64,000 nucleotides of DNA, taken from the sequence record OM386653.1; one strand, 5' to 3'. The stretch's first letter is position 1. The number at the start of each line of letters is the position of its first letter. Below, one piece after another: positions 28,161 through 41,659 of this stretch. The position numbers were made by a program, and so were the translations under genes. Source of the stretch: Escherichia phage vB_EcoM_ESCO8. The notes beneath the pieces were generated by a model, which searched no databases, was not told where the DNA came from, and saw nothing but the letters and a program-made list of their open reading frames with translations.

Positions 28161-28180
28161 ATTAAATAGAGGAGAAAACT

Positions 28181-29341: not shown

Positions 29342-29348
29342 GTGATAA

Positions 29349-29375
29349 AAGGAGGCGAAAGCCTCCTTTATTTGT
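29349..29375 (+). terminator. Rho-independent terminator
   Basis: AAGGAGGC-gaaa-GCCTCCTT followed by TATTTG. Confidence 0.6.
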
Positions 29376-29387
29376 ATGGAGGGTATT

Positions 29388-29579
29388 ATGGATCATTATT
29401 TTGTTTTTAAAGATAAAGTTGATACCGCAGGTGGTCACGTTGCTAAAAATGATCGTGACATTAAAGAAGTATTAGGAGATCTGATTAACATTTTAGAACA
29501 AAAAGAGTTGCTTTTAGATAAGGATATTGCTAGACTTCTTGGTGTGGGGATAAGTGACATACAAAGATTACCATTCTAA
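29388..29579 (+). CDS. hypothetical protein
   Basis: GGAGGG RBS then ATG; 63 aa. Confidence 0.4.
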   Translation: MDHYFVFKDKVDTAGGHVAKNDRDIKEVLGDLINILEQKELLLDKDIARLLGVGISDIQRLPF

Positions 29580-29590
29580 AGGGGAAGAAA

Positions 29591-29746
29591 ATGCTTACAG
29601 ATGATGAATATAAAGCTATCCAAGAAAAACTAACGGAACTTGAAATTCTTGCTGTCAATATTAAAGATCAATCACATGCTGGAAAGTTACTACATCAAGA
29701 GATCAATAAAATTAAGCAGATGATATTCTTTTGGACGGAGGATTAA
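29591..29746 (+). CDS. hypothetical small protein (51 aa)
   Basis: Manually read ORF MLTDDEYKAIQEKLTELEILAVNIKDQSHAGKLL...; RBS AAAGGGGAAG. Confidence 0.35.
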   Translation: MLTDDEYKAIQEKLTELEILAVNIKDQSHAGKLLHQEINKIKQMIFFWTED

Positions 29747-29748
29747 AA

Positions 29749-30405
29749 ATGACTGTTAAGCATATTTCTTTTGATGTATGGAATACTCTTATTACTGCTA
29801 ATCCTTTGTATGCAGAAGAACGCAACAAGGTTATTGCCGAGTATGCCTCTTGTTCTGAGGTAGAAGCAGCTACCGTATATAAAGAGGTAAAAACTCTCCT
29901 GGATTTAAAAGCAGAAAAAGGCATTTGTGGAACATCTAGAAATGCTTGGGAAACACTTTCTGCTCGTTTGAACATTGATCTTGATAAAGTAGATGGGTTA
30001 AAAAGAGACTGTTTAGCAATGTTTATAAAACATCCTCCAACATTAAACCCTGAACTTTGCAAGAAGTTGGAAGAGCTAAGTTCAACCTATTCTTTGAGTA
30101 TTAAAAGCAATACTAATTTTGTACCTGGTAGTTTTTTAGCTGTATATTCTGGCTTGACAAAATTACCATTCGACTTTATGCATTTTTCTGACGAGTTTTG
30201 CTTGTGTAAACCAGATCCTAGGTTTTTTAAACTCTCTTTTGATGAAATGGTAACGTTTGATCTCGCACCAGAGGAGATCTTACACGTTGGAGATAGTTTG
30301 ATCTATGATGGAAAAGCTGTTGACATAGGGATGAAGTTCTGTCATATTATTAATCCAGAAGACTTGTTGGCTAAACTTAAAAAAGAGGAACTTATTAATG
30401 CGTAA
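29749..30405 (+). CDS. HAD-superfamily hydrolase (phosphatase-like)
   Basis: Motif I FDVWNTL near N-terminus, motif IV VGDSLIYDGK near C-terminus; 8-nt overlap with next gene. Confidence 0.55.
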   Translation: MTVKHISFDVWNTLITANPLYAEERNKVIAEYASCSEVEAATVYKEVKTLLDLKAEKGICGTSRNAWETLSARLNIDLDKVDGLKRDCLAMFIKHPPTLNPELCKKLEELSSTYSLSIKSNTNFVPGSFLAVYSGLTKLPFDFMHFSDEFCLCKPDPRFFKLSFDEMVTFDLAPEEILHVGDSLIYDGKAVDIGMKFCHIINPEDLLAKLKKEELINA

Positions 30406-31255
30406 TCAAATTCAACATTTTGCTAATACTTTTACTAACCTGAAGGAAGCAAAATTTAACATTGCAGATTATTCCAAGCTAAAGTTTGGTAGTAACCAGG
30501 CAGCAAAAAGAATGGGGCGCATTCTGGCTGAAAGTTTCTTTTCCAAGTATGAAGAACGACTGGTAAATGAAAGTTTTGTTGTTATTCCATCTCCATATAA
30601 CTATGTGAAAAATGCAGCTACAGTGTTATCTGAACATTTTGTAGATCACCTCAACTACCTAATCTCTATCAAAGGAGGTAAAGCAGTGGAGTGGGATATC
30701 GTTCATCGTAAAGTGAGCTATATCAATGATTATGGATTTCTTAGCAAAGAAGATCGTAAGGCTTTGATCGATGGTGACACTTTCTCTATCAATCGTGATT
30801 TCTGGGGTAATAAAACTCTGATTTTCATTGATGATGTTAATATTACAGGAACGCACGAAGAAAAACTTATTGAAATTTTAGACAAAGAAGGTGTTGAAAA
30901 CGATACGTTTTTCCTGTACTTTGCAAAGTATGAAGGTACAGAAGCCAATACCGAAGCTGCACTTAACTTCAACTATATCAATAACCTGGCAGCTTTTATT
31001 AAAATGATTAAACAAGAAACTGATGCTAAATGTTTGGTTCGTCCTATTAAGTATCTAATGAGTCAAAGCGAAGTTGATTTTAAAATTGCACTTTCACAGC
31101 TTCCTTTGTATTATGTAGAACAACTGTTCTTTGGTTGCCTTGCAGAAGGCTACAATAACATTGAAAAATATAAAGAGAACTTTGATTTCCTACGTCAATT
31201 TTTTGAAAGCAACATTATCAACAAATCTAATGTTAAAGGGGATTATTATGTCTAA
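30398..31255 (+). CDS. Phosphoribosyltransferase-like protein (divergent type I PRTase)
   Basis: 285 aa; LIFIDDVNITGTHEE resembles PRPP-binding loop of type I PRTases; translationally coupled to HAD and macro genes. Confidence 0.45.
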   Translation: MRNQIQHFANTFTNLKEAKFNIADYSKLKFGSNQAAKRMGRILAESFFSKYEERLVNESFVVIPSPYNYVKNAATVLSEHFVDHLNYLISIKGGKAVEWDIVHRKVSYINDYGFLSKEDRKALIDGDTFSINRDFWGNKTLIFIDDVNITGTHEEKLIEILDKEGVENDTFFLYFAKYEGTEANTEAALNFNYINNLAAFIKMIKQETDAKCLVRPIKYLMSQSEVDFKIALSQLPLYYVEQLFFGCLAEGYNNIEKYKENFDFLRQFFESNIINKSNVKGDYYV

Positions 31256-31964
31256 TAAAGTAATGACTTTCGGAGATCCTATCACCAATATTACAGAAAA
31301 AGATTTTGGGCGTGTAGCAACAGATAAAGATGGTGTCTTAAGAATTCGTGTACAAGGTATTACAGCACAGGATGAATATGCTGTGTATGTTTCAGGTCTT
31401 AACTATATTGATGATCGCATTACACAAAACTTTGCACTGATCGGTGGTGTAGAGAAAATGTATTGGGAAGATGAAATTGTAACAAGTTATCCGGCAGGTA
31501 TCATTGAGGTATACGGTGATCTTTTAGCAGCAGCCGAGAGAGGCGATATAGACGCTATAGCACACTGCTGTAACTGTTTTTGCACTATGGGTAGTGGTAT
31601 TGCACCAAAAATTAAAAGCAAGTGGCCTGGTGCGTTTAAAGCAGATTGTGCCACTAAACATGGTGATTATAAAAAATTAGGTACGTTTACCAAATATATA
31701 GAAAACAATTTGACAATTTATAATTTATATGGACAATATGGTTATAGTCGTCGTGAGGAAGGTAAGCGTGACCTGAATTATGAAGCTATCTACAATGCGT
31801 TAGATAGTATGGGAGACGATGTTGTATCTTCAGGCGGTAAAATTGTAGGTTTACCAATGCTTGGTTGTGGTTTGGCTGGAGGTTCTTGGAGTATTGTAAA
31901 ACTTATGATCGAAGAAACTCTAGTAAACAAAGGTTTAAATGTAATTGTTTACAAACTGAAATAA
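31248..31964 (+). CDS. Macro-domain protein with unknown N-terminal domain
   Basis: ATG preceded by AAAGGGG; C-terminal half has macro-like IDAIAHCCNCFCTMGSGIA and LPMLGCGLAGGS motifs; ORF-track start 31131 rejected. Confidence 0.55.
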   Translation: MSNKVMTFGDPITNITEKDFGRVATDKDGVLRIRVQGITAQDEYAVYVSGLNYIDDRITQNFALIGGVEKMYWEDEIVTSYPAGIIEVYGDLLAAAERGDIDAIAHCCNCFCTMGSGIAPKIKSKWPGAFKADCATKHGDYKKLGTFTKYIENNLTIYNLYGQYGYSRREEGKRDLNYEAIYNALDSMGDDVVSSGGKIVGLPMLGCGLAGGSWSIVKLMIEETLVNKGLNVIVYKLK

Positions 31965-31973
31965 GGAGAAAGT

Positions 31974-32180
31974 ATGGCAGGTGTTTTAGCAGTATTAGGT
32001 TGTTTTATTGTTGTGTTTTTGATTGTGTTAATCCCTAGTTGGCTACTGCTTTTAGCATACAACTATATGATTGACATTATCGGCTTAGACTGGCATCATG
32101 TTCCTGTAACGTTTTGGAGTGTAGTCTGTGTGACGTTCATTCTTGCGGTACTTCGTGGTATCTTTCAATCTAACAAATAA
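31974..32180 (+). CDS. hypothetical small membrane protein
   Basis: ORF track 68 aa; two TM helices. Confidence 0.45.
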   Translation: MAGVLAVLGCFIVVFLIVLIPSWLLLLAYNYMIDIIGLDWHHVPVTFWSVVCVTFILAVLRGIFQSNK

Positions 32181-32194
32181 GAGAGGATTTTTAT

Positions 32195-32443
32195 ATGCGT
32201 AAAGTAAATGTTGAAGTGCTTGAAAAATTTAGAAACACTCGTGATTGTACTATCGGCAAGGTTTACGAGGCTATTCTCCTTGAAGATGGAGATCAAGTTC
32301 CTGCCCCGTATCACGCCTTTAATGGTCAAATCAGCAAAGTGGAAGGTGGTCTTGCTATTTGCTTTATTGATGACGTAGGTGATGCTGTAGCTTTCCCTGT
32401 CATTAACAAAGAAGATAAACTTAAAATTACAGAACTGAACTAG
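32195..32443 (+). CDS. hypothetical protein
   Basis: ORF track 82 aa. Confidence 0.5.
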   Translation: MRKVNVEVLEKFRNTRDCTIGKVYEAILLEDGDQVPAPYHAFNGQISKVEGGLAICFIDDVGDAVAFPVINKEDKLKITELN

Positions 32444-32471
32444 TTGACTTTCTTTAAAAACAGTTTATAGT
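32444..32471 (+). promoter_or_regulatory. sigma70-like promoter with leader hairpin ahead of TerC gene
   Basis: TTGACT-16nt-TATAGT followed by CATAGAG and hairpin GCGGAGGA-ttgt-CCTCCGC (32484-32502), same architecture as early-array promoters. Confidence 0.5.
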
Positions 32472-32520
32472 ATAAGACATAGAGCGGAGGATTGTCCTCC
32501 GCATTAAAGAGGAGAAAAGA

Positions 32521-33498
32521 ATGCAACTGGGTTTCCCAATTATTGATGTGGTTGTTTTAGTGGGTATTTTAGTCTTGTCGATTTGTATTGACTTCTTTGG
32601 ACACAGAGAAAACAAAGAAATTTCATTTAAATCTGCAATTGGCTGGTCAATTTTCTGGATTGGGGTATCATTAGCCTACTATGGTTTTGTATACTTCCAA
32701 CACGGTGCTGATTTTGCGAGCTTGTTCTTGAGTGGGTATGTGTTGGAGAAATCTCTTTCTGTAGATAACTTAGTAGTATTTGTAGCAGTATTCGCAAGTT
32801 TTGGTATTAAAAGCACACACTTGCAGCACAAGATTCTACTTTGGGGTATTGCAGGTGCGATTGTCTTCCGAGGTGTGTTTGTAGCAGTAGGTACTTACTT
32901 GTTGAGTTTGGGCTGGTATGTTAATATCTTCTTCGGTGCTGTCATCCTTTTCTGTGCGGCTAAAATGGTATTCGCTGGAGATAATGATGCAGAAGTTGAT
33001 TACTCTAAACACTGGGCTACTCGCATTGTTCGTAAGCTGTTCCCTGTATCTGATCAGATGGATGGTGAGAAGTTCTTCACAATCAAAAATGGTGTTCGTG
33101 TAGCAACTCCGGCTCTGGTTTGTGTGTTTGTAATGGAAATGGTTGACGTAATCTTTGCAGTAGACTCTGTTCCAGCAGTAATTGCAGTGACACAAGAACC
33201 TCTGCTGGTGTTCTCTTCGATGCTCTGTGCAATCTTAGGTTTACGTGCTCTGTTCTTTGTTCTTAGTGTTGCACTGAAGTATTTGGTTCATCTGGAGAAA
33301 GCAGTTATCGTAGTCCTGGTGTTTGTGGGTGTAAAACTGATGTATCACCCGTTTGCAGAAACTCTGCACGCAAAAGTGAGTTTCCTGCCAGCACACATTG
33401 ACCCGACGATCAGTATGTATATTGTGTTAGGTACTCTTGGGCTGGGTGTTCTTGCAAGTTTAATCTTCCCTGAAAAAGAAGACCAGGCTGTTGCTTAA
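32521..33498 (+). CDS. TerC-family integral membrane protein
   Basis: 325 aa, multi-TM; conserved EKSLSVDNLVVF and DVIFAVDSVPAV motifs. Confidence 0.75.
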   Translation: MQLGFPIIDVVVLVGILVLSICIDFFGHRENKEISFKSAIGWSIFWIGVSLAYYGFVYFQHGADFASLFLSGYVLEKSLSVDNLVVFVAVFASFGIKSTHLQHKILLWGIAGAIVFRGVFVAVGTYLLSLGWYVNIFFGAVILFCAAKMVFAGDNDAEVDYSKHWATRIVRKLFPVSDQMDGEKFFTIKNGVRVATPALVCVFVMEMVDVIFAVDSVPAVIAVTQEPLLVFSSMLCAILGLRALFFVLSVALKYLVHLEKAVIVVLVFVGVKLMYHPFAETLHAKVSFLPAHIDPTISMYIVLGTLGLGVLASLIFPEKEDQAVA

Positions 33499-33504
33499 TT
33501 CATT

Positions 33505-33528
33505 AAGCCCCTTCGGGGGCTTTATTGA
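33505..33528 (+). terminator. Rho-independent terminator
   Basis: AAGCCCC-ttcg-GGGGCTT followed by TATTGA. Confidence 0.55.
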
Positions 33529-33537
33529 GGTGATCTG

Positions 33538-33744
33538 ATGGTGGTTTTACGTGTTCTTTGGATTCTGTTTGAAAATATTTGTTTTGCTCTAGGTTTGTTT
33601 TGTTTGATTTTTATCTTGACAACATATATTGATAACCATACAATTACTATCAACAGGAACGGAGAACAGATGTATTGTTTCTCTAGGGATTTTAAAAATT
33701 GTGTTGAGATTTTAAATGAGAGGGTTACAAATGAAAAACATTAA
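33538..33744 (+). CDS. hypothetical small membrane protein
   Basis: ORF track 68 aa. Confidence 0.35.
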   Translation: MVVLRVLWILFENICFALGLFCLIFILTTYIDNHTITINRNGEQMYCFSRDFKNCVEILNERVTNEKH

Positions 33745-34321
33745 ATCTTTTATTGTTGCAGTTGTTTTAGGTAGTGCATTGCTGGTAGGTTGTGATGATT
33801 CTGAAAATGTACAAAATCAACGTTACCAACAAACACCAAATCAGATGGTAGATGAACAATATGTAAATCAGCCTGCACCTCAAGTTGTTCAAGCAGCACC
33901 TGCACAACCTTCAACAGTTGTTGTGCAAGGAGGCGGCAGTGGTTCTTCTGGCGTAGGTGAGTTTGCTACAGGTATGCTTCTTGGTCATATGTTGAGTGGT
34001 AATAGTGGCGGTGGTGGTTATAGAGATGGCGGTAGCAATACAACAATTATCAATAACAACGCTGCTCCTACAACTAATAGTAAAGCATATACAACACAAA
34101 AGCATAGGTTTTATGATAAACAAGGGAATACATATACAACCACTAAACAAAACACAATTAAGCAGCAAAGTGTACAAACGTATTCACGCCCATCAACAAC
34201 AAAAGTGAATAGTGATTACTCTGCTCGTAAGTCTTACTCAAGTCCTATTAGCTCTTATAGTAAGTCTTCGAAAAGTTATTCTTCGTCGAAACGTAGTTTT
34301 AGTAGCTCACGTCGTCGTTAA
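33731..34321 (+). CDS. Putative lipoprotein with Ser/Tyr-rich low-complexity tail
   Basis: Start MKNIKSFIVAVVLGSALLVGC (lipobox LVGC) after GAGAGGG RBS; G-rich and S/Y/K-rich C-terminus. Confidence 0.5.
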   Translation: MKNIKSFIVAVVLGSALLVGCDDSENVQNQRYQQTPNQMVDEQYVNQPAPQVVQAAPAQPSTVVVQGGGSGSSGVGEFATGMLLGHMLSGNSGGGGYRDGGSNTTIINNNAAPTTNSKAYTTQKHRFYDKQGNTYTTTKQNTIKQQSVQTYSRPSTTKVNSDYSARKSYSSPISSYSKSSKSYSSSKRSFSSSRRR

Positions 34322-34356
34322 TAATTTAATACAGATTAAATAAGAAGGAGAAACAG

Positions 34357-35208
34357 ATGAAACTAGAAGTTGGTAAAGTGTATCGCCTGGAAGGTTGGAT
34401 CTTTAATCAAGAAATTCTTGAGAAGAATAAAGATGGTTTTGAGTTTGTTGGTACTACCAAGGAAAGTATGCACAATGACGAATACTGTAAATTCGTTGGT
34501 AAAAATACAGGTCAAGAACAATTTTGCTTTAAGAGCGCAATCGGTGATTATGCTTCTGTAATGCCAACACCAGAAAAGACTTCGAAGCAATATACTGTCT
34601 TTGGTGTAAAACTTGAAGAACTTGTAGAACACCCACGTTTTGAAGAGTTCAAGGTTGCTGCAATGCGCAAGCATTCTGAAATTAAAATACATAATTTGTT
34701 TGATTTAGAAGATCGGTTTGATATCTTTATGTATGATCGCAGGGAAAAGCATTTTGATGCAACGACTTCAAAATTTGCTGCAACAGAGGATATTAAAATC
34801 CTTGATGTTGATACCTTTCTTGAGAGTGTATCGTTTGTATTCATTCCTAAATACAAAAAACGTAGTGATCATAAACGTGTGAAAGGAACTCCTCGTAAAA
34901 AACGTACTGTAAACAAAGCAACTTTGCACTTCACTTCTGGTGATAAATATACTCTCAAAGGGTTTGAAAGTGTTTTGTATGATGCTGGAACGGGTAATAT
35001 CAAGTTTATCATTAAGGCAACCTACAAAGGTACGGTATTGCACGAAGAGGCTGTTACACTACCTGTATTCGATATCTCTCGTGTTGAGGTACGGGGTGTT
35101 AAAGAGTCCTTCGATCTGGATTTCTTAACTGCTAATACCACGGGTTATGTTAATCTGGAAGCAGATGGAGCATTTATTACTACAAATTATTTAGATATGT
35201 TTGTTTAA
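34357..35208 (+). CDS. hypothetical protein
   Basis: ORF track 283 aa. Confidence 0.55.
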   Translation: MKLEVGKVYRLEGWIFNQEILEKNKDGFEFVGTTKESMHNDEYCKFVGKNTGQEQFCFKSAIGDYASVMPTPEKTSKQYTVFGVKLEELVEHPRFEEFKVAAMRKHSEIKIHNLFDLEDRFDIFMYDRREKHFDATTSKFAATEDIKILDVDTFLESVSFVFIPKYKKRSDHKRVKGTPRKKRTVNKATLHFTSGDKYTLKGFESVLYDAGTGNIKFIIKATYKGTVLHEEAVTLPVFDISRVEVRGVKESFDLDFLTANTTGYVNLEADGAFITTNYLDMFV

Positions 35209-35276
35209 TACTTAACTTGTGTTATGATGGTGGTATAGAAGTATCACCATCTACTAAAGAATATGGAGGAAATTGA

Positions 35277-36380
35277 ATGTCCAGTCCTTTTATCAGTGCC
35301 GTAAAAAGCAAACCGTCTGAAATGAGTGTATTCACGGCAACAACAGAAAAAAGTAAGTCTTTGTTTGCTCCAACTGCTATGGATGCAAGTCCTGTATATG
35401 CCCCTGCTGTTGCACGACCTGTACAAATGCTGCCTCCAATGTCTCGTGAAGAGATTGAACAGGTTGGTGCTGATGCAGGACTTACTCTTCGTAACCTTAA
35501 TGCTGAAGTGCTTAAACACCAGCGTTCATCTCAGGGAGATGAAATGAGTGAACGTTTAACTGCGCTTATTAAGCAAGCAAAGCAACTTGATCCTAACTCT
35601 ATTAAACAATCTAAAGGTTTAGGTAAACTAGTTAAGAAAGTTTTAGGTATGAAAGAAGATTTGTTTGGAGAATTTGACACCATCAATAACCGTATTGAAG
35701 GTTTGGTAAAGACACTCCAAACAGACTTGAAAAAAGAAGAAGATTCTTTACGATATCTGCAACGTTTAGAAGAGGCTATTGCAAAATATGCCCTTAGTTT
35801 AAACAGGGATATAGAGCTTCTAACAGCTACTTATGAAAAAGAAGAAATTCGCCTTAATACACTGCCTGAAAATGAGGTAGAAGAGCGTCAACGTACTCGT
35901 GATACTATGGATCTGCTTGAAATTCGTATTGCAGACCTGAAAGCCTTACGCTTACTATGTGTTCAGATGGGGCCACGTGTACAAAGTATGCAGAAAGTAT
36001 CTGCAAGTTTGATGCGATCAGCCCGTAATATTGTGAATAATGTTATCCCTGCTTACTCTGCAAACTTTTCTATGCATATTGAAAGTCTACGCCAGAAGAA
36101 AGCAGCCGATACACAGAACAATGTACTAAATGAATTTAATGCTGCTATTGCAATGGGTAGTGATTTGGCTGCACAAAACCAAATTGAAGCTACACAACTT
36201 GCTAATCGTCAAGTATTGGATATTGAAACATTACGTCGTGATCAAGAAAACTTGGTTAAAATGTTGGAAGAAACTAACCGAATCAACACTGAAGCCCGTG
36301 CTGCTCGTATTGATTACATTCAAGAAGTGCAATCTCTTGAAGATGGTATGATTCAAACTGTTAAACGTGGTCTACTTTAA
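35277..36380 (+). CDS. TelA-like (toxic anion resistance family) protein, tentative
   Basis: 367 aa, predominantly coiled-coil, size and context (between TerC and TerD/vWA) fit TelA/KlaA family; not confirmed by motif. Confidence 0.4.
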   Translation: MSSPFISAVKSKPSEMSVFTATTEKSKSLFAPTAMDASPVYAPAVARPVQMLPPMSREEIEQVGADAGLTLRNLNAEVLKHQRSSQGDEMSERLTALIKQAKQLDPNSIKQSKGLGKLVKKVLGMKEDLFGEFDTINNRIEGLVKTLQTDLKKEEDSLRYLQRLEEAIAKYALSLNRDIELLTATYEKEEIRLNTLPENEVEERQRTRDTMDLLEIRIADLKALRLLCVQMGPRVQSMQKVSASLMRSARNIVNNVIPAYSANFSMHIESLRQKKAADTQNNVLNEFNAAIAMGSDLAAQNQIEATQLANRQVLDIETLRRDQENLVKMLEETNRINTEARAARIDYIQEVQSLEDGMIQTVKRGLL

Positions 36381-36393
36381 GGAGAAATATATT

Positions 36394-36600
36394 ATGAATA
36401 TTAAAATTTACAAACTGTCTGGTTCTATGATTGCTGTTCAGTATGATAATGAAGATCGTTATGTTCTCCTCCAGGATGCTTGGTTAGATGATCCTAATGT
36501 ATTCACTGTCCTGCGAGAACTACGTTCTGTCTATACCTATTCTTCTAAAGATGGTTTTGACAATTCAACGATGGAATTGGTAAAAGAGGAGAATGTGTAA
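36394..36600 (+). CDS. hypothetical protein
   Basis: ORF track frame trimmed to ATG after GGAG RBS. Confidence 0.45.
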   Translation: MNIKIYKLSGSMIAVQYDNEDRYVLLQDAWLDDPNVFTVLRELRSVYTYSSKDGFDNSTMELVKEENV

Positions 36601-36800
36601 TGAGTAAAGATATTCACTTAACTCGTGAAGAATTGCAAACCATTATGGAAGATGCTTTCATTGATGGTTGGAAACAAGGTCAAGAATCAGATTGGTATGA
36701 TGCCGAAGATTTTTTGTATTATCATATGACTGCACCTGTAGACGAGCAAACACACTCTGAAACAACTTTGGCTTTAATTGATCTTAAGGCTGGTGTATAA
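36600..36800 (+). CDS. hypothetical protein sharing motif with C-terminus of next gene
   Basis: 66 aa; LTREELQTIMEDAFIDGWKQG matches ISLNELQKITREAFYLGWKVG in 36800..37363. Confidence 0.45.
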   Translation: MSKDIHLTREELQTIMEDAFIDGWKQGQESDWYDAEDFLYYHMTAPVDEQTHSETTLALIDLKAGV

Positions 36801-37363
36801 TGGGGTGTTTTAGTTTCTTGTGCAAAGAGTCTGGTAATGCTGCTCTTTCTACCTCTTTTGATGGCTCTCCTTGCTACCTATTTCTTTTGAAAGGTGGTAA
36901 GGTTGTCGAAGAGATGTATGGGAATTATGATAGCTATGGTAGTGTTTTCTCTAACGAAGAAGATAAACATGGCAATCGTAAAAGATTTAAGTGGTCTATG
37001 CCTTGGGAAGAAGTTTGTAATTTGATGTTCTCTTCCGATCTTGGAGATGGGATTGCTCTGGTATTAGAAGAGCACTTTACAGGTGAGATCCCAACAGAAA
37101 GATCTGAAGAAGATCCTAACCAGGGTTGGGGTGATGGAGAAGAAGATCCAGATTGCTTCTTCAACACTGAAAATAATAAATTTAAACGTGTTGACAATCC
37201 TTACCACAAAGTGCATAATACTTGCATTGAGACAGAAGAAGACTCAAAGCTAGAAATTGAAGATGATTTAGTTGTAACTATCTCTTTAAACGAGTTGCAA
37301 AAAATCACTAGAGAGGCTTTCTATTTAGGTTGGAAAGTAGGTAAAGGAGGAGATAGTGCTTAA
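36800..37363 (+). CDS. hypothetical protein
   Basis: ORF track 187 aa. Confidence 0.5.
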   Translation: MGCFSFLCKESGNAALSTSFDGSPCYLFLLKGGKVVEEMYGNYDSYGSVFSNEEDKHGNRKRFKWSMPWEEVCNLMFSSDLGDGIALVLEEHFTGEIPTERSEEDPNQGWGDGEEDPDCFFNTENNKFKRVDNPYHKVHNTCIETEEDSKLEIEDDLVVTISLNELQKITREAFYLGWKVGKGGDSA

Positions 37364-37625
37364 ATTTAATATCAAAGACGACAAATCAGATGAACCTAAA
37401 TGTTTTGGAGAACTTGACGTAGGTGATACATTTGTATATTATGTTGCCTATCAAGATTCTGGTTTAGATACGTTCAGAAACTTAGTGTTTATTAAAGTTA
37501 ATACAAACCAAGCAATGTGTCTGAACGGTTCGCAAAGAGGTCAACTTAGCTGTATTTCGTATGATACAGAAATGGTAGAAGTGGATTTAGAAGTTACTAA
37601 CATTACACTCAGAAAGGAGAAATAA
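37356..37625 (+). CDS. hypothetical protein
   Basis: ORF track 89 aa; GTG start. Confidence 0.4.
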   Translation: MLKFNIKDDKSDEPKCFGELDVGDTFVYYVAYQDSGLDTFRNLVFIKVNTNQAMCLNGSQRGQLSCISYDTEMVEVDLEVTNITLRKEK

Positions 37626-37626
37626 T

Positions 37627-38421
37627 ATGTCCAATAAAATCAGTCTTAAAAAACGTCAAGAAACTCTTACCGTATCTCTGCGTAAGAAAAAGATTAACGA
37701 TGTTGTTCTTCGTGTCGGTAGCGCCTTAGATATTTCGGGTAGTATGTGTGAGCTGTATCGTGATGGCACTGTTAGTGATTTTGTAGGTAAGCTACTGCCG
37801 TTTGGTATGAAGTTTGATGATAATGCACAGATTGACATGTGGGCTTTCAATAGTTCTTCTTTTGAACTGCCTCCTGCAACGGCTGATGTATATGATGATT
37901 ATGTCGGCTCTTGTATGTCTAATGTTTGCATCAATGGTGGTACAGCTTATGCTCCAGTAATGCAAGAGATCTATGATACATACTTCGGTAGTGTACCTAT
38001 GAAAAATATTACACGCGAAGTCGTTGAGTATGAAGAAGTTCCGGCTAAGGGTTTCCTTGCTAAACTAACTGGTAAAAAAGAACGTGTAGAAGTTACACGT
38101 ACTGTTGTAGAACAGGTTGTAGATACTGATGCACAAGTTGATCGTACTCCTGCAATGATTTTCTTCCAAACTGACGGGGAGAACATGGATACTTCAGCAG
38201 TACGTAGTTTGCTGAACAAACACCGCAACACTCCTGTTTACTGGTTTATGGTTGGTGTAGGTAATGCAAACTTTAAATTCCTGAAAGACTTGGCAAAAGA
38301 ATACGATAACGTTGATTTTATCGGTATTGCAGATTTGTCCTTGTCTGACGAAGAACTTTACGATAAACTGCTATCCGAAGAGTTTGGCGAGTGGGTTAAA
38401 AAATTTGGAGCAAAAGCGTAA
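37627..38421 (+). CDS. von Willebrand factor A (vWA) domain protein (TerY-like)
   Basis: 264 aa; MIDAS motif LDISGSM near N-terminus, later FFQTDGEN; adjacent to TerD. Confidence 0.6.
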   Translation: MSNKISLKKRQETLTVSLRKKKINDVVLRVGSALDISGSMCELYRDGTVSDFVGKLLPFGMKFDDNAQIDMWAFNSSSFELPPATADVYDDYVGSCMSNVCINGGTAYAPVMQEIYDTYFGSVPMKNITREVVEYEEVPAKGFLAKLTGKKERVEVTRTVVEQVVDTDAQVDRTPAMIFFQTDGENMDTSAVRSLLNKHRNTPVYWFMVGVGNANFKFLKDLAKEYDNVDFIGIADLSLSDEELYDKLLSEEFGEWVKKFGAKA

Positions 38422-38493
38422 AAAACGCTTGACTTTGTAGAAAAGATTAGTAAAATAGACAACGTAAATTAACAACAAAGGAGATAATAAATT

Positions 38494-39090
38494 ATGACTC
38501 AGAAAATTTCCCTGAAAAAAGGTTCTAGCGAAAAAGTTTCTCTGAAAAAGATTGCACCAGCACTGAAACGCATTCGTCTGGAATTCTCTTGGAAATCTAA
38601 CGAAAAACTGGATCTGGATGTTAGTGCTCTGATTTGCCGACACAATGCATCTGGTCTGCCGGAACTGTTGTCTCCTCGCCACCTGGTATGCTACGCACAG
38701 AAATTTGATCCTGAACGTTCTACTTTTGCAGGTGAAGATGTTCGTGACGGTGTAGGACAAATGGAGCAGATTGATGTTACACTGGATAATATCTCTGCTG
38801 AAGCACAGGAAATTGCATTCGTAATCACTATTGATGACGAAACGGGTAAGAAACGCCTTGGTCACGCTACCGAAGGTTTCCTTAAAATCTTCGATGATGA
38901 ACGTAACGTTGAACTGCTGGATTTTGACTTCTTGGCTCCAGAACTTGCAGGTAATACCATTTGCCACGTTGCCTCCCTGGTGCGGGAAGATAGCGAATGG
39001 AAACTGAAAGCATATGGTGTAGGTAAAGCTGGACTTGACATTTATGATGTAGTTAAAGCGTTTGGCGCTGGCGACGATTGGTTCGAGTAA
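38494..39090 (+). CDS. TerD-family protein
   Basis: 198 aa; ISLKKGSSEKVSLKK, DLDVSAL, ITIDD, EWKLKAYGVG pattern matches TerD/TerE/TerZ family as recalled. Confidence 0.75.
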   Translation: MTQKISLKKGSSEKVSLKKIAPALKRIRLEFSWKSNEKLDLDVSALICRHNASGLPELLSPRHLVCYAQKFDPERSTFAGEDVRDGVGQMEQIDVTLDNISAEAQEIAFVITIDDETGKKRLGHATEGFLKIFDDERNVELLDFDFLAPELAGNTICHVASLVREDSEWKLKAYGVGKAGLDIYDVVKAFGAGDDWFE

Positions 39091-39099
39091 TAAATCATA

Positions 39100-39124
39100 G
39101 CGCCCTTCGGGGCGCATATTTTAA
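39100..39124 (+). terminator. Rho-independent terminator
   Basis: GCGCCC-ttcg-GGGCGC followed by ATATTTT. Confidence 0.6.
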
Positions 39125-39142
39125 ATAGAAGAGGAGAAAACA

Positions 39143-39745
39143 ATGGGTATTACTTTAGAAGGTCAAAAACTTATTCGCAGCGGTAATTTTCTTGTGGATA
39201 TTGACAACAATGAAGATTATGCTTTAGAAGTTAGTGATGTACTGTTTAATGCTTTGCAGTCTGGTTTCAATTTTGAAGTTTATGAAGTAATCCGTGGAAC
39301 TAAACTCAGAGAAACCCTTGGATCAACTAGTGATGTTTATTCTGCGATCTGGCAATATTTCGGGTTAATGGATGGTAAGACATACCTTACTGATAGTTAT
39401 TCTGAAGATGTTGTTTATCTTGATATGGAAGAGTTTCGTCGTCTGTTCAAAAGTGAAGAAAATGAAGAAGAGGGTGAACTTTTTGAAGGAATTACTCTCG
39501 AAGGTAATGTTGAAATTGTGTATAAAGCAGGAAAAACATTCCACTTGCGTGAAAACGGTAAAGCAAAAGTTGATTTTGTAAACAAGACAGTAACAACTGA
39601 ACATAATTATCTTAAAGATGGTCAACCAGCTTTTGAACGTGTAACAATTAAATTTAAAGTATTGTCTGCACTAGTTACGGATCAAGAACGTATTGATTTT
39701 GTAGAAGATGGTGTAGTAACTCATACAAAGGTTTACAACATCTAA
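39143..39745 (+). CDS. hypothetical protein
   Basis: ORF track 200 aa. Confidence 0.55.
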   Translation: MGITLEGQKLIRSGNFLVDIDNNEDYALEVSDVLFNALQSGFNFEVYEVIRGTKLRETLGSTSDVYSAIWQYFGLMDGKTYLTDSYSEDVVYLDMEEFRRLFKSEENEEEGELFEGITLEGNVEIVYKAGKTFHLRENGKAKVDFVNKTVTTEHNYLKDGQPAFERVTIKFKVLSALVTDQERIDFVEDGVVTHTKVYNI

Positions 39746-39777
39746 CAGGGTGTAAGAGGGGGATAATCCCCCTCCAC

Positions 39778-39806
39778 TTGCAAAACAGCCTCTTCTGTGT
39801 TACAAT
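39778..39806 (+). promoter_or_regulatory. sigma70-like promoter
   Basis: TTGCAA-17nt-TACAAT; preceded by hairpin GAGGGGG-ataat-CCCCCTC (39759-39777). Confidence 0.45.
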
Positions 39807-39837
39807 AAAAGTTCGTTTAACAAAATAGGAGGCAAGT

Positions 39838-40347
39838 TTGTCAATAAAAACCTTTGTCGCAATTGCGTTACTATCCTTAACTGCTTTTACATTTACACCT
39901 GTTGTGGCGCAAGCCGAAGCTGCAAACGTAAAAACTGCTAAAGTAGTTCACAAGTGTACAAAGCGTGATAGTAAAGAAAATCTATTAGCTTGTGCAATCT
40001 ATGCAGAAAGTCGTAATCAAGGAAAGCGAGGTATGTCTGCTGTTGGTAATGTAGTATTGAATAGGGCTAGAGATTCATATTTCCCTGATACTATAAAAGA
40101 AGTTTTGTTTCAAAAAGGACAATTCTCTTACACAAAGACATTCAACGTTATGGAACGTGATAAGTGGAAGGAAGCTAAGACTATAGCAGAACGTCTACGT
40201 TATCTCGATACGCATTTTCCAGAATTACGAATTGCATTAGATATTACAAAAGGAGCATTATACTTTAAAAAATCTACAATAAGAGCACACTGGGAAAAAG
40301 ATATGGTTCTAGTGTACCGCTACAAAGAACATCAATTCTATCGCTAA
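39838..40347 (+). CDS. Cell-wall hydrolase (SleB/Hydrolase_2-like) with signal peptide
   Basis: TTG start after AGGAGG RBS; signal peptide ending AQA; LACAIYAESRNQG...GNVVLNRAR motif. Confidence 0.55.
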   Translation: MSIKTFVAIALLSLTAFTFTPVVAQAEAANVKTAKVVHKCTKRDSKENLLACAIYAESRNQGKRGMSAVGNVVLNRARDSYFPDTIKEVLFQKGQFSYTKTFNVMERDKWKEAKTIAERLRYLDTHFPELRIALDITKGALYFKKSTIRAHWEKDMVLVYRYKEHQFYR

Positions 40348-40357
40348 GGAGATATAG

Positions 40358-40636
40358 ATGAAAGATGGCGTTATCGTTGCAAGTTATCTTGTTATTGGTC
40401 TTACAGAAGAGGATGTACATTACATTAGGAAACATTTAGAACAGTTTGCAATGATGTTCATCGAAGACGAAGACAATATGGATGTTTATTCAATTGAAAT
40501 GATCAATGATAACGTCTATCCTTGTATAGCTTTACGAGTCGATGAAGATGTTTGGGAACGTTTTTCACGTAGTCACGATAATGTTGAATGTTCTATGGTT
40601 ATGTCACAAAGCAACATACTGGGAGTGTTACACTGA
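40358..40636 (+). CDS. hypothetical protein
   Basis: ORF track 92 aa. Confidence 0.5.
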   Translation: MKDGVIVASYLVIGLTEEDVHYIRKHLEQFAMMFIEDEDNMDVYSIEMINDNVYPCIALRVDEDVWERFSRSHDNVECSMVMSQSNILGVLH

Positions 40637-40866
40637 TGGCTGATGTTATTGAAGTTAACTTTAAAACAAAAAAGAAAGTTGATAAGTATACAATCTTAAA
40701 AAATATTTGCGTTGTGTGCTTCAATTCTGTAATATATGACTCACGTAAGGGCGAAAATGAAAATGAACCTTACATCCAGATTTCTAAAGGTAAAGGGCAG
40801 TGTATCTGCAAAAACTGTGCTGTAGCAATTAAGGAGGTTGTAGATGAAAACCATTGGGATCAATGA
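40636..40866 (+). CDS. hypothetical small Cys-rich protein
   Basis: ORF track frame trimmed to MADVIEV; CVVCF...CICKNC. Confidence 0.4.
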   Translation: MADVIEVNFKTKKKVDKYTILKNICVVCFNSVIYDSRKGENENEPYIQISKGKGQCICKNCAVAIKEVVDENHWDQ

Positions 40867-41038
40867 TACTGGCGAAGTTGTAAAATCTTGGGATGATCTT
40901 AGTGGTATCCCTACAGATAAATTGATTAAACTGCGTGATGTTTGTCGTGATCATCTTAATGAAACGTATAAAGAGTATATGGAAGCACGAGATCACAGTT
41001 TAGCTATCCAAATGGAACTCGCAAAACGTAATCAATAG
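40844..41038 (+). CDS. hypothetical protein
   Basis: ORF track 64 aa. Confidence 0.4.
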   Translation: MKTIGINDTGEVVKSWDDLSGIPTDKLIKLRDVCRDHLNETYKEYMEARDHSLAIQMELAKRNQ

Positions 41039-41095
41039 GTAAAACCATTTAGACTTTTTAGTCTAAAAATGCTAAAGTAATAATACGGAGGGAGT

Positions 41096-41659
41096 ATGAT
41101 ATTTCACATAACTCCCTATCTTTCTGGAGATATTGGAAAAGGTATCAATGACACAATAAGTGTCTTACCAGAAGATAGTTGGATTTGCCTAAGAGACATT
41201 GATACAATGTTTCTTCTTCCAGAACAACCTGCTTGGCTGGAATCAATAGTCCGTTCAAATCCTGATTTTGATGTTCTTGGTGCATCTTGTAATAGATTGG
41301 GATCAACATATCAATTATTTAATAATGAAAGAAGTGAAGATCCGAATATACTACACCACATTGAGATTGCAAAAAGAGCACATCTAGAATGGGGAAACTC
41401 AATAGAGGAAGTACCTACAGATGCTATCTTAGCAGGATTCTTTCTTCTCTTTCGTAAGAGTCTGTGGAATGAAATCCCTTTTGAGGAAAGATCAATACAG
41501 TTTGATATAATTTTCTCTAAAGCATTGCACGCTAACAATAAAAGGCTAGGTTTACTACGTGGGTTATATTTATTTCACACATACCGTTTAGGTAATGATG
41601 ATCCTAGAAAAGCTATTTCACACCTTTTACATTGTCAAGACATGAATAAAATTATTTAA
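41096..41659 (+). CDS. hypothetical protein (possible nucleotide-sugar transferase fold)
   Basis: ORF track 187 aa; DxD-like LRDIDTMF; assignment weak. Confidence 0.45.
   Translation: MIFHITPYLSGDIGKGINDTISVLPEDSWICLRDIDTMFLLPEQPAWLESIVRSNPDFDVLGASCNRLGSTYQLFNNERSEDPNILHHIEIAKRAHLEWGNSIEEVPTDAILAGFFLLFRKSLWNEIPFEERSIQFDIIFSKALHANNKRLGLLRGLYLFHTYRLGNDDPRKAISHLLHCQDMNKII

What the first reader, a model, noticed from the sequence alone, without database searches (positions are those of the whole stretch)
32444..39745. Phage-borne Ter-like module: TerC, TelA-like, vWA (TerY-like) and TerD under its own promoter
A contiguous rightward cluster encodes a TerC-family membrane protein, a lipoprotein, a coiled-coil TelA-like protein, a vWA protein with MIDAS motif and a clear TerD-family protein, bounded by terminators at 33505 and 39100. 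Ter clusters are classically bacterial or plasmid stress, tellurite, phage and colicin resistance systems. A near-complete set in a lytic phage, driven by an early-type promoter with leader hairpin, suggests the phage brings its own membrane or Ca2+-linked stress module, possibly for superinfection exclusion, defence against host abortive-infection membrane attack, or control of lysis timing. Several intervening proteins (34357..35208, 36394..37625, 39143..39745) have no recognisable domain and may be novel components.
Basis: partly seen in the sequence, partly recalled or inferred. Interest (0 to 1): 0.85.

Follow-up and report, generated by a model that had tools for sequence, protein, structure and literature searches.

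The report
Phage-borne abbreviated Ter membrane/cation module
A virulent E. coli phage (phage outra, a phi92 relative) really does carry TerC, TelA, a TerF-type vWA protein and TerD, but this cluster is already annotated and discussed in phi92-like and many other large phages, and its function is still untested.

Summary
The window is Escherichia phage outra (Justusliebigvirus), 100% identical. All four domain calls hold: TerC 1.2e-38, TelA 5.7e-34, vWA-TerF-like 7.2e-39 with an intact MIDAS motif, TerD 5.1e-28. The lipoprotein, the promoter-like site with leader hairpin, and the 39100 terminator are also present.

Corrections:
- The 33506 hairpin lies inside the cluster, directly after terC. 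Sigma-70-like sites are enriched along the coding strand, so this is a multi-promoter region, not one operon.
- The set is abbreviated, not near-complete. There is no TerB, TerA or TerZ and only one TerD.
- A HAD / PRTase_3 pair at 29749-31255 probably belongs to the system.
- ORF 39143-39745 is missing from the sister genus.
- ORF 36800-37363 is a widespread phage domain that sits away from Ter genes in other phages.

In 76 viral loci, TerD follows the vWA gene in 69. The transporter varies (TerC, DUF475 or a Ca2+ P-type ATPase), and so does the helical partner (TelA or PspA-like).

This points to an early-expressed module that handles divalent cations and stabilises the membrane, with superinfection or colicin exclusion as the likely phenotype. 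That reading is inferred, and it was already proposed in print (2018-2022). Already known; modest interest.

The parts
29749..30405 (+). HAD-superfamily hydrolase. Probable 'metabolite arm' partner of the PRTase. Motif I reads FDVWNT, so the Asp at +2 is replaced by Trp.
   Evidence: Pfam Hydrolase 6.5e-6; NCBIfam HAD-IA families. It lies directly upstream of PRTase_3 in each of the 3 metagenomic phage contig types examined and in phAPEC8. Motif conserved in 5 of 5 phage homologues.
30398..31255 (+). ComF-like phosphoribosyltransferase (PRTase_3) with an intact PRPP loop, FIDDVNITGTHE.
   Evidence: PF15610 1.1e-41. Found in 156 phage records, mostly in the same genera that carry the TerF-type vWA. 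In metagenomic contig L008 it sits in one block with TerC, TerD and vWA.
31248..31964 (+). TARG1/DarG-type macrodomain protein with an ~85-aa N-terminal extension. A neighbour; probably a separate ADP-ribose-removing (counter-defence) gene.
   Evidence: Pfam Macro 1.1e-6; PADLOC DarG 4.3e-13 and NCBIfam DarG 9.5e-13; PDB 5e3b, TARG1/OARD1. Lies next to TerC or DUF475 in several phage groups. The phAPEC8 record notes similar proteins in rV5, FelixO1 and PVP-SE1.
31974..32180 (+). 68-aa hydrophobic (probably two-TM) protein. Membership of the module is uncertain.
   Evidence: 60% identical to the phAPEC8 homologue. PHROG 16065, unknown function.
32444..32471 (+). Sigma-70-like promoter, TTGACT-16-TATAGT, upstream of terC.
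   Evidence: The -35 element and spacing are conserved in phAPEC8, where a host-dependent promoter is annotated.
32484..32502 (+). 5'-leader hairpin, GCGGAGGA-TTG-TCCTCCGC. Likely an mRNA 5' stabiliser (inferred).
   Evidence: dG -15 kcal/mol, z -3.9. Two compensatory base-pair changes against phAPEC8. No Rfam family anywhere in the window.
32521..33498 (+). TerC/Alx-family inner-membrane divalent-cation transporter.
   Evidence: PF03741 1.2e-38. TIGR03718 322.9 bits against a 246.4 cut-off. 46% identical over its full length to plasmid TerC.
33506..33523 (+). Stem-loop after terC, AAGCCCC-TTCG-GGGGCTT, with a weak T tail. Possible leaky terminator.
   Evidence: Read directly. Not called by the scan.
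33538..33744 (+). 68-aa single-TM protein overlapping the start of the lipoprotein gene.
   Evidence: PHROG 17591. 49% identical to phAPEC8. Found in 5 Stephanstirmvirinae-like viral loci.
33616..33644 (+). Strong sigma-70-like site, TTGACA-17-TACAAT (11 of 12), inside the 68-aa ORF and upstream of the lipoprotein gene.
   Evidence: TTGACA is conserved in phAPEC8, although the site lies in coding sequence.
33716..34321 (+). Lipoprotein (lipobox LLVG|C, Asp at +2) with the conserved glycine-rich motif GEFATGMLLGHMLSG and a Ser/Lys-rich tail. Candidate accessory component.
   Evidence: Homologues sit between the transporter gene and telA in phAPEC8 and in the more distant viral loci L023, L024 and L027 (E ~1e-12).
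34357..35208 (+). 283-aa ORF of unknown function, lineage-restricted.
   Evidence: Only 2 clusters among 5.8 billion proteins. Partial match to phAPEC8 gp055, 41% over 71 aa. Weak matches to 70-aa ORFs at the same position in L021-L027.
35277..36380 (+). TelA-family helical protein.
   Evidence: PF05816 5.7e-34. 78% identical to phAPEC8. Found in 219 phage records.
36394..36800 (+). Two small ORFs (36394-36600 and 36600-36800) of unknown function.
   Evidence: PHROGs 26823 and 14200, unknown function. 36394-36600 is absent from phAPEC8.
36800..37363 (+). 187-aa protein whose N-terminal ~140 aa form a widespread, highly conserved phage domain (MGCFSFLC...GNYDSYG...DPNQGWG). Probably an unrelated insert.
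37356..37625 (+). 89-aa ORF of unknown function, directly upstream of the vWA gene.
   Evidence: PHROG 11278. 65% identical to phAPEC8, which also has a paralogue.
37627..38421 (+). TerF-type vWA protein with an intact MIDAS motif and a ~40-aa lineage-specific insertion.
   Evidence: PF10138 7.2e-39. Aligns to the C-terminal half of E. coli TerF. Found in 215 phage records.
38429..38456 (+). Sigma-70-like site, TTGACT-16-TAAAAT, upstream of terD.
   Evidence: Not conserved in phAPEC8.
38494..39090 (+). TerD-domain protein with a divergent Ca2+-loop.
   Evidence: PF02342 5.1e-28. PDB 2kxt, 8.6e-15. The loop GDNRTGEGDGDDE aligns to GED-VRDG--VGQMEQ, whereas other phage TerDs keep GDDE. TerD follows the vWA gene in 69 of 76 viral loci.
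39100..39115 (+). Terminator-like hairpin, GCGCCC-TTCG-GGGCGC, followed by a T-run.
39143..39745 (+). 200-aa ORF. Not part of the conserved module.

Best explanation
This is the abbreviated Ter system typical of large virulent phages, here in Escherichia phage outra (phi92-like).

Shown. The cluster encodes a TerC/Alx-type inner-membrane divalent-cation transporter, a TelA helical protein, a TerF-type vWA protein with an intact MIDAS metal site, and one TerD beta-sandwich protein. All lie on the strand that also carries the replication and nucleotide-metabolism genes. Sigma-70-like promoters precede terC and terD. A HAD / PRTase_3 pair lies 1.3 kb upstream.

Inferred. The genes are expressed early by host RNA polymerase. 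The proteins work together at the inner membrane of the infected cell. TerC moves a divalent cation (Mn2+ or Ca2+ class). TerD and the vWA MIDAS site bind or sense cations on the cytoplasmic side. TelA acts as a membrane-associated scaffold.

The net effect would be to keep ion balance and membrane integrity or energisation stable during the latent period. The observable phenotypes should be those of bacterial Ter systems: reduced entry or establishment of superinfecting phages and resistance to pore-forming colicins.

The HAD / PRTase_3 pair would make or process a ribosylated small molecule that feeds into the system. This is the weakest step of the explanation.
For: - Domain identities.
- Similarity to the plasmid ter locus: TerC 46% identical, vWA matches the TerF C-terminal half, TerD 28% identical to TerD/TerE.
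- Conserved synteny in the sister genus, with 65-81% identity for the core proteins.
- The same TelA-vWA-TerC/DUF475-TerD set occurs in unrelated Pseudomonas, Caulobacter and Acinetobacter phages.
- TerD lies directly downstream of the vWA gene in 69 of 76 viral loci.
- Non-orthologous displacement around that pair. The transporter is TerC, DUF475 or a PMCA-type Ca2+ P-type ATPase; one of these ATPases scores 525 bits against a 507 cut-off. The helical partner is TelA or a PspA/IM30-like protein. This is what a cation-plus-membrane machine would predict.
- HAD-PRTase_3 is a fixed gene pair that co-occurs with Ter genes. It is in one block with them in L008, within 10 kb in L009, and present in the same phage genera.
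- The promoter and leader hairpin are conserved with compensatory changes. Sigma-70-like sites are enriched on the coding strand: 13 against 3.3 +/- 2.0 expected.
- Phage ter genes were expressed early in an unrelated phage by RNA-seq (bioRxiv 10.1101/2025.10.29.685362).
- Bacterial data: terC, terD and terZ are needed for phage inhibition and colicin resistance; TerC-TerD is the minimal unit; terC affects Zn/Mn tolerance and plaque size (PMC12054061).
Against: - No experiment on any phage-borne Ter module was found.
- The cluster lacks TerB, TerA and TerZ, which contribute to the bacterial phenotypes.
- The TerD Ca2+-loop is degenerate in this phage lineage, so Ca2+ binding is uncertain here.
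- The HAD lacks the Asp+2 general acid of canonical phosphatases.
- The phage PRTase and HAD are not homologous to those of the plasmid ter locus at E<=0.01.
- PRTase_3 is far from the Ter genes in Rhizobium and Caulobacter phages, and absent from the Pseudomonas and Acinetobacter phages examined.
- The 53 loci with the ATPase/PspA-like arrangement are related phages, so they count as few independent events. The PspA hits are below Pfam's gathering score.
- Timing of expression is inferred from promoter consensus only.
Confidence: 0.5

Rival explanations
1. Metal supply. The selected function is TerC/Alx-type export of Mn2+ (or a related cation) to the periplasm or out of the cytoplasm. This would metalate exported phage proteins, or tune cytoplasmic metal levels for phage enzymes. 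TerD, vWA and TelA would only regulate the transporter.
For: - TerC reaches the curated Alx/TerC 'metal homeostasis' family cut-off.
- terC has its own conserved promoter, leader and terminator-like hairpin. It has been swapped between genera as a cassette: 94-95% identical in some Phapecoctavirus phages whose TelA is 78% and PRTase 65% identical.
- TerC occurs without the other Ter genes' genera in the Proteus, Cronobacter, Vibrio and Pectobacterium phage lists.
- Exported proteins are encoded nearby: a lipoprotein, and a SleB-type hydrolase with an N-terminal signal peptide.
- E. coli Alx is described as a Mn2+ exporter in the abstract of PMC10197570.
Against: - It does not explain why vWA and TerD are the invariant pair while the transporter is interchangeable.
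- No metal-dependent exported phage enzyme was identified here.
Confidence: 0.2
2. Lysis timing. The module holds the membrane energised so that the signal-peptide-bearing SleB-type endolysin encoded just downstream stays inactive until the holin fires.
For: - The SleB-like hydrolase at 39838-40347 (PF07486, 2.7e-19) begins with a signal-peptide-like N-terminus, read directly. It follows the Ter genes in both genera.
- In a related module the helical partner is PspA-like.
Against: - In Pseudomonas, Caulobacter and Acinetobacter phages the Ter genes are not annotated next to lysis genes.
- Sigma-70-type promoters suggest early expression, not late.
- This is adjacency in a single lineage only.
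Confidence: 0.1
3. Separate counter-defence genes that happen to be neighbours. On this view PRTase_3/HAD and the DarG-type macrodomain act on nucleotide- or ADP-ribose-based host immunity, and the Ter genes have no functional link to them.
For: - The macrodomain is of the DarG/TARG1 type. According to the phAPEC8 record it also occurs in rV5, FelixO1 and PVP-SE1.
- In contig L011 the HAD-PRTase_3 pair has no Ter gene within 10 kb.
- In Rhizobium and Caulobacter phages the pair lies tens of kb from the Ter genes.
Against: - The genus-level distributions of PRTase_3 and the TerF-type vWA are nearly the same in Escherichia, Klebsiella, Rhizobium and Brevundimonas phages.
- In L008 all of these genes lie in a single block.
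- This rival concerns only the upstream arm, not the Ter core.
Confidence: 0.12
4. Literal tellurite or xenobiotic resistance conferred on the host, or decaying cargo with no role in infection.
For: This is the family name and the historical phenotype. Iyer et al. mention xenobiotic resistance during pseudolysogeny.
Against: - The phage is virulent.
- The genes are intact and 65-81% conserved across genera, with conserved regulatory signals.
- G+C content matches the rest of the genome.
- The PhiPsa374 authors judged tellurium resistance unlikely from such a subset.
Confidence: 0.05

Closest known systems
Abbreviated phage Ter operons (TerD, TerC, TerF-vWA, TelA, with or without PRTase and HAD) described by Iyer, Anantharaman, Krishnan, Burroughs & Aravind 2021 (PMC7824862). 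The same genes are annotated in phi92 gp172-gp187, phAPEC8, ZCKP1, phiKp34 and PhiPsa374.
   Same: The same four core families. The same PRTase + HAD accessory arm. The hosts are large virulent phages. The hypothesis proposed there is the same: exclusion of rival phages.
   Different: Nothing essential; this is a member of that set. In this lineage the core genes are spread over 6.6 kb with lineage-specific ORFs in between. terC behaves as a separately exchangeable cassette. The TerD Ca2+-loop is degenerate.
Plasmid / O-island terZABCDEF locus of Enterobacteriaceae (R478 type), seen here in E. coli plasmid NZ_CP068707.
   Same: TerC is 46% identical. TerD is 28% identical to TerD/TerE. The vWA protein is homologous to the C-terminal half of TerF. 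Both loci are accompanied by a PRTase and a HAD enzyme.
   Different: The phage lacks TerZ, TerA, TerB, TerE, the TerXYW/TerY-C genes, and the ATP-grasp, StiP and HpcH enzymes. Its PRTase (PRTase_3) and HAD show no detectable similarity to the plasmid ones. The phage has TelA, which that locus lacks.
Bacillus subtilis yceCDEFGH envelope-stress operon: TerD paralogues, the TerC protein MeeF/YceF, and the TelA homologue YceH. This comparison rests on my own knowledge and was not tested here.
   Same: It combines TerD, TerC and TelA without TerB. It is linked to cell-envelope stress and to Mn2+ handling by TerC.
   Different: The bacterial operon has three TerD paralogues and no TerF-type vWA, and is stress-regulated. 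I made no sequence comparison with it.
The individual genes were noted in gut jumbo phages (PMC12880540).
   Same: The vWA-TerD pair is homologous (26-31% identity). The layout is the same: a cation transporter plus a helical, membrane-associated protein.
   Different: The transporter and the helical protein are not homologous to TerC and TelA (hhalign probability 0.3%). TerD is often triplicated.

Membership tests
Phage-type abbreviated Ter system (Iyer et al. 2021) | TerC-family (or DUF475) membrane protein | tested here: met
   PF03741 1.2e-38. TIGR03718 scores above its cut-off.
Phage-type abbreviated Ter system (Iyer et al. 2021) | TerD-domain protein | tested here: met
   PF02342 5.1e-28. 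PDB 2kxt, 8.6e-15.
Phage-type abbreviated Ter system (Iyer et al. 2021) | TerF-type vWA protein with a MIDAS motif | tested here: met
   PF10138 7.2e-39. DxSxS, GGT and TDG residues are conserved.
Phage-type abbreviated Ter system (Iyer et al. 2021) | TelA protein | tested here: met
   PF05816 5.7e-34.
Phage-type abbreviated Ter system (Iyer et al. 2021) | Optional 'signal biosynthesis' arm: PRTase plus a HAD-fold enzyme | tested here: met
   PRTase_3 1.1e-41 and HAD 6.5e-6, encoded by overlapping adjacent genes. Catalytic competence of the HAD is uncertain because Asp+2 is replaced by Trp.
Phage-type abbreviated Ter system (Iyer et al. 2021) | Function: inhibition of rival phages or xenobiotics | not testable with these tools
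   This needs infection and expression experiments. None were found in the literature searches.
Canonical terZABCDEF tellurite / phage-inhibition / colicin-resistance operon | TerB | tested here: not met
   tblastn with E. coli TerB finds nothing in the 64-kb window at E<=0.01. No Pfam TerB hit among the cluster ORFs.
Canonical terZABCDEF tellurite / phage-inhibition / colicin-resistance operon | Several TerD-domain paralogues (TerZ, TerA, TerD, TerE, and the TerF N-terminal half) | tested here: not met
   Only one TerD-domain ORF is present. The vWA protein matches only TerF residues ~190-404.
Canonical terZABCDEF tellurite / phage-inhibition / colicin-resistance operon | TerC plus TerD, reported as the minimal functional unit | tested here: met
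   Both are present. The minimal-unit statement is quoted from PMC12054061.
TerC/Alx subfamily (TIGR03718, 'R_switched_Alx') | Whole-protein score above the curated cut-off | tested here: met
   322.9 bits against 246.4.
TerC/Alx subfamily (TIGR03718, 'R_switched_Alx') | Riboswitch (yybP-ykoY type) in the leader | tested here: not met
   No Rfam family reaches its gathering score anywhere in the window. The leader is only ~45 nt and holds a single hairpin.
TerY-P or other catalogued anti-phage defence systems (PADLOC) | A match of the Ter proteins to any defence-system model | tested here: not met
   No PADLOC hit for TerC, TelA, vWA, TerD, PRTase or HAD. Only the macrodomain matches a model, DarG.
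DarTG toxin-antitoxin (for the neighbouring macrodomain gene) | DarG-type macrodomain | tested here: met
   PADLOC DarG 4.3e-13. NCBIfam DarG 9.5e-13, covering only the first ~145 positions of the model.
DarTG toxin-antitoxin (for the neighbouring macrodomain gene) | Full-length DarG (score above cut-off) together with an adjacent DarT toxin | tested here: not met
   48 bits against a cut-off of 250. The neighbouring genes are PRTase_3 and a 68-aa membrane protein.

The most novel reading that the evidence does not exclude
Phage Ter clusters are one form of a modular machine. Its fixed core would be a copine-like vWA protein plus a TerD beta-sandwich that sense divalent cations. Its interchangeable parts would be a cation transporter (TerC, DUF475 or a PMCA-type Ca2+ ATPase) and a membrane-binding helical protein (TelA or PspA/IM30-like). 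On this reading the machine works as a cation-triggered system that guards or repairs the infected cell's inner membrane against incoming phage DNA, colicin pores or membrane-attacking abortive-infection effectors. In phi92-like phages a PRTase_3/HAD-made ribosylated metabolite would tune it.
Probability: 0.3. Interest if true: 0.65.

Novelty: already known. Interest (0 to 1): 0.3.

Why it matters
Ter genes are among the most widespread 'stress' genes of bacteria, plasmids and large phages, yet no mechanism has been established for them. A virulent, easily grown E. coli K-12 phage that carries a compact TerC-TelA-vWA-TerD set would be a convenient system for finding out what the core does. Candidate roles include superinfection or colicin exclusion, cation homeostasis and membrane protection. 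As a finding, however, the presence of the cluster and the exclusion hypothesis are already in the literature. The value here is confirmation, better-defined boundaries, and comparative hints about which parts are core and which are interchangeable.

Tried and rejected
- A riboswitch in the terC leader, suggested by the 'R_switched_Alx' family name. Rejected: no Rfam hit in the window.
- Recent capture of terC from the host. Rejected: only ~69% DNA identity over ~200 nt to E. coli terC, no alx match, and phage-typical G+C.
- The unknown ORFs as hidden Ter components (TerB, or divergent TerD).
  - No Pfam, PHROG-function, PADLOC or NCBIfam hit.
  - No homologues in distant Ter loci by phmmer.
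  - 34357-35208 has too few homologues to model.
- The PspA-like protein of related operons as a divergent TelA. Rejected by hhalign, probability 0.3%.
- The tm68/lipoprotein pair as a spanin. Not supported: the lipoprotein is ~200 aa, low-complexity, and has Asp at +2. The spanin survey paper groups phi92 with phAPEC8 but gave no coordinates in the text searched.
- Anantharaman et al. 2012 (PMC4104200) could not be read because it is not held.
- The afdb50 fold library was unavailable.
- A six-sequence vWA alignment was too divergent to use for the viral-contig scan.
- The Bacillus phage WH1 vWA neighbourhood did not show the Ter or ATPase layout.
- No transcriptome of any Stephanstirmvirinae phage was found.

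Full report
**Identity of the window.** The region 32444-39745 is 100% identical to Escherichia phage outra (MN850645.1; Justusliebigvirus, Stephanstirmvirinae). This is a virulent phi92-like myovirus isolated on E. coli K-12. Some 54 further phage records cover at least 80% of the region. In outra's own record most of these genes are labelled 'hypothetical'. In phi92, Paula, JLBYU50, ALITA, VEcB and other records they are annotated as TerC, tellurite or toxic-anion resistance, VWA and TerD proteins.

**Observation check.**
- 32521-33498 is TerC (1.2e-38).
- 35277-36380 is TelA (5.7e-34).
- 37627-38421 is vWA-TerF-like (7.2e-39).
- 38494-39090 is TerD (5.1e-28).

The vWA protein keeps the MIDAS residues DxSxS, GGT and TDG when aligned with E. 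coli TerF and five other phage homologues. ORF 33716-34321 has a lipobox (LLVG|C) followed by Asp-Asp. The ORFs 34357-35208, 36394-37625 (four ORFs) and 39143-39745 have no significant family match in Pfam, PHROGs (function), PADLOC or NCBIfam.

**Transcription signals.** A TTGACT-16-TATAGT site at 32444-32471 is followed by a stable hairpin at 32484-32502 (dG -15 kcal/mol, z -3.9) and a strong RBS. Promoter and hairpin are conserved in phAPEC8. Two hairpin base pairs there have changed on both sides (A-T to G-C, G-C to A-T). The phAPEC8 record annotates a host-dependent promoter at the same spot. No Rfam family is detected, so this is not a riboswitch.

The hairpin at 33506-33523 has a weak T tail and was not called as a terminator. 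It sits directly after terC, inside the claimed cluster. A second good promoter-like site lies at 33616-33644 (11 of 12 matches), and another at 38429-38456 just before terD. A clean terminator follows terD at 39100-39115.

Sites matching at least 10 of 12 consensus positions number 13 on the coding strand of 27.5-41.5 kb, against 3.3 +/- 2.0 expected. The other strand has one. The region therefore looks like a host-polymerase-transcribed, probably early, multi-promoter region. It does not look like one operon under one promoter. Timing itself is not shown, and no transcriptome of this subfamily was found.

**Extent of the module.** Upstream on the same strand lie three further genes.
- A HAD-fold hydrolase (29749-30405).
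- A ComF-like phosphoribosyltransferase whose start overlaps the HAD gene's end (30398-31255; PRTase_3, 1.1e-41).
- A macrodomain protein (31248-31964).

HAD immediately followed by PRTase_3 is a fixed pair in phAPEC8 and in all three metagenomic phage contig types examined.
- In L008 the order is TerC, 389 aa, 178 aa, TerD, 311 aa, vWA, two small ORFs, HAD, PRTase_3, all in one block.
- In L009 vWA and two TerD genes lie about 9 kb upstream of the pair.
- In L011 no Ter gene lies within 10 kb.

Among isolated phages, PRTase_3 (156 records) and the TerF-type vWA (215 records) show almost the same counts in Escherichia, Klebsiella, Rhizobium and Brevundimonas phages. Pseudomonas phages account for 38 of the vWA records but do not appear in the PRTase_3 listing, and the Pseudomonas and Acinetobacter loci examined carry only the four core genes. 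I therefore include the HAD / PRTase_3 pair as a probable accessory arm, as Iyer et al. did for another phage.

The macrodomain is of the DarG/TARG1 type. According to the phAPEC8 record, similar proteins occur in rV5, FelixO1 and PVP-SE1. It is more likely an independent ADP-ribose-removing gene.

At the other end, ORF 39143-39745 is absent from phAPEC8 and rare overall, with 12 clusters. It is not part of the conserved module.

**Conservation.** Identities to phAPEC8 are:

| Protein | Identity |
|---|---|
| TerD | 81% |
| TelA | 78% |
| 36800-37363 | 76% |
| TerC | 71% |
| vWA | 67% |
| PRTase_3 | 65% |
| HAD | 50% |
| Lipoprotein | 35% |
| 34357-35208 | 41% over 71 aa |

Some Phapecoctavirus phages (Mt1B1_P17, tuntematon, phiWec188) carry a TerC that is 94-95% identical to outra's. 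Their TelA is 78% and their PRTase 65% identical. The terC cassette, which has its own promoter and hairpin, has therefore been exchanged between genera.

**Comparison across phages.** The order TelA, vWA, TerC (or DUF475), TerD is found compactly in Pseudomonas phage Kremar, Caulobacter phage CcrColossus and an Acinetobacter phage.

A scan of viral contigs with a vWA alignment gave 76 loci. I labelled their ORFs with profiles built from the sequences in hand.
- TerD lies directly downstream of the vWA gene in 69 of 76 loci.
- TelA is present in 15, TerC in 6, DUF475 in 6, and HAD/PRTase_3 in 5.
- In 53 loci the vWA gene is preceded by a P-type cation ATPase of the PMCA Ca2+ type. One example scores above the curated cut-off (525 against 507 bits).
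- In those same loci the TerD gene or genes are followed by a PspA/IM30-like protein. Eight of nine members hit PF04012 (best E 7.7e-6, below the gathering score). It is not homologous to TelA.

These 53 loci come from related uncultivated phages, so they count as few independent events. The pattern is still informative. The vWA-TerD pair is fixed, while the cation transporter and the helical partner are replaceable by non-homologous proteins of similar general role.

In a group with 55-63% vWA identity (L021-L027), DUF475 replaces TerC. A homologue of the lipoprotein still sits between the transporter gene and telA (E ~1e-12).

**Protein details.**
- TerC belongs to the TerC/Alx 'metal homeostasis' subfamily. 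It is 46% identical to plasmid TerC.
- The TerD loop that reads GDNRTGEGDGDDE in Klebsiella/E. coli TerD reads GED-VRDG--VGQMEQ here and in phAPEC8. Other phage TerDs keep GDDE. Ca2+ binding by this TerD is therefore uncertain.
- HAD motif I is FDVWNT in all five phage homologues. The Asp at +2 used by canonical HAD phosphatases is missing. Its role as a plain phosphatase is therefore uncertain (this inference rests on established HAD enzymology).

**Unknown ORFs.**
- 39143-39745 also models well (mean pLDDT 86.7) and gives only generic small beta-barrel matches.
- 34357-35208 has almost no homologues.

None of these can be called a Ter component. Only the lipoprotein has comparative support.

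**Mechanism.** The gene content, its conservation and the conserved regulatory signals are shown. The rest is inferred from three sources: the families involved, the displacement pattern, and bacterial data quoted in PMC12054061. That paper reports that terC, terD and terZ are needed for phage inhibition and colicin resistance. It also reports that TerC-TerD is the minimal unit, and that terC affects Zn/Mn tolerance and plaque size.

My inference is an early-expressed complex at the inner membrane that handles divalent cations and stabilises the membrane. The expected phenotype is exclusion of superinfecting phages and pore-forming colicins. Early expression of phage ter genes has been seen by RNA-seq in an unrelated phage.

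The rivals are metal supply through TerC alone, control of lysis timing (a signal-peptide SleB-type hydrolase is encoded next door), and an unrelated counter-defence role for the upstream enzymes. I put about 0.5 on the membrane/cation reading.

**Comparison with what is known, and novelty.** The cluster meets every defining feature of the abbreviated phage Ter operon described by Iyer et al. 2021. It fails the tests for the canonical terZABCDEF operon, because TerB and the TerZ/TerA paralogues are absent. It matches no PADLOC defence system.

The exclusion hypothesis has already been stated for close relatives: ZCKP1, phiKp34, jumbo and related phages, and PhiPsa374. The phi92 genes are named as TerD and tellurite-resistance proteins in a 2015 cocktail study. 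No functional experiment on a phage Ter module was found.

**Verdict.** The boundaries and the single-operon picture need correction. Novelty: already known. Interest is modest.

Noticed in passing
L032-L091 (for example L036 7189-11971 and L073 7109-13306): In 53 of 76 viral loci that carry a TerF-type vWA, the genes form a tight same-strand row. The order is a PMCA-type Ca2+ P-type ATPase, then vWA, then one or three TerD genes, then a PspA/IM30-like protein. A 2026 paper reports the ATPase, terD and a pspA-like gene in gut phages, but its main text contains neither 'vWA' nor 'von Willebrand', and the passages read describe no such four-gene row.
   Followed up: partly
[not shown]
   Followed up: partly
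window 36600-36800 and 37290-37363: The 66-aa ORF carries the motif LTREELQTIMEDAFIDGWKQG. This resembles the C-terminal tail of the next protein, LNELQKITREAFYLGWKVG. A short module appears to be shared by the two adjacent genes.
   Followed up: no
window 32444-33523: The terC cassette (promoter, leader hairpin, gene and hairpin) looks mosaic. Some Phapecoctavirus phages have a TerC that is 94-95% identical to outra's, although their flanking PRTase (65%) and TelA (78%) are far more divergent.
   Followed up: partly
window 31248-31964: The macrodomain protein is of the DarG/TARG1 type and has an extra ~85-aa N-terminal region that phAPEC8 lacks. It is a candidate anti-DarT or other ADP-ribosylation-reversing factor.
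   Followed up: partly
window 29749-30405: The HAD enzyme paired with PRTase_3 has FDVWNT as motif I, with Trp in place of the second Asp. This holds in all five phage homologues aligned, which is unusual for a phosphatase.
   Followed up: partly
window 27500-41500: Sigma-70-like promoter matches of at least 10 of 12 positions are strongly enriched on the coding strand: 13 observed against 3.3 expected, with only one on the other strand. Three of them match 11 of 12 positions, at 28045, 33616 and 37191.
   Followed up: partly
window 39838-40347: The SleB-type cell-wall hydrolase (annotated as the endolysin in relatives) starts with what reads as a Sec signal peptide ending in AQA. This suggests an exported endolysin, encoded right after the Ter genes.
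   Followed up: no
GenBank MG065689, MG065639, MG065645, MG065650, MG065656: Five records named 'Campylobacter phage', with C. jejuni given as host, encode proteins 78-100% identical to those of E. coli Justusliebigvirus/Phapecoctavirus phages. The host labels look doubtful.
   Followed up: no
L007 1388-4162 (phage JohannJBalmer): In this close relative the UvrD/Rep helicase gene upstream of the region is annotated as containing an intein.
   Followed up: no
L023 6715-7317: In a more distant Ter module (Macro, DUF475, lipoprotein, then further ORFs, TelA, vWA, TerD), a SprT-like metallopeptidase ORF (1.7e-10) sits between the lipoprotein gene and telA. In outra that position is occupied by the unknown 283-aa ORF.
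   Followed up: no
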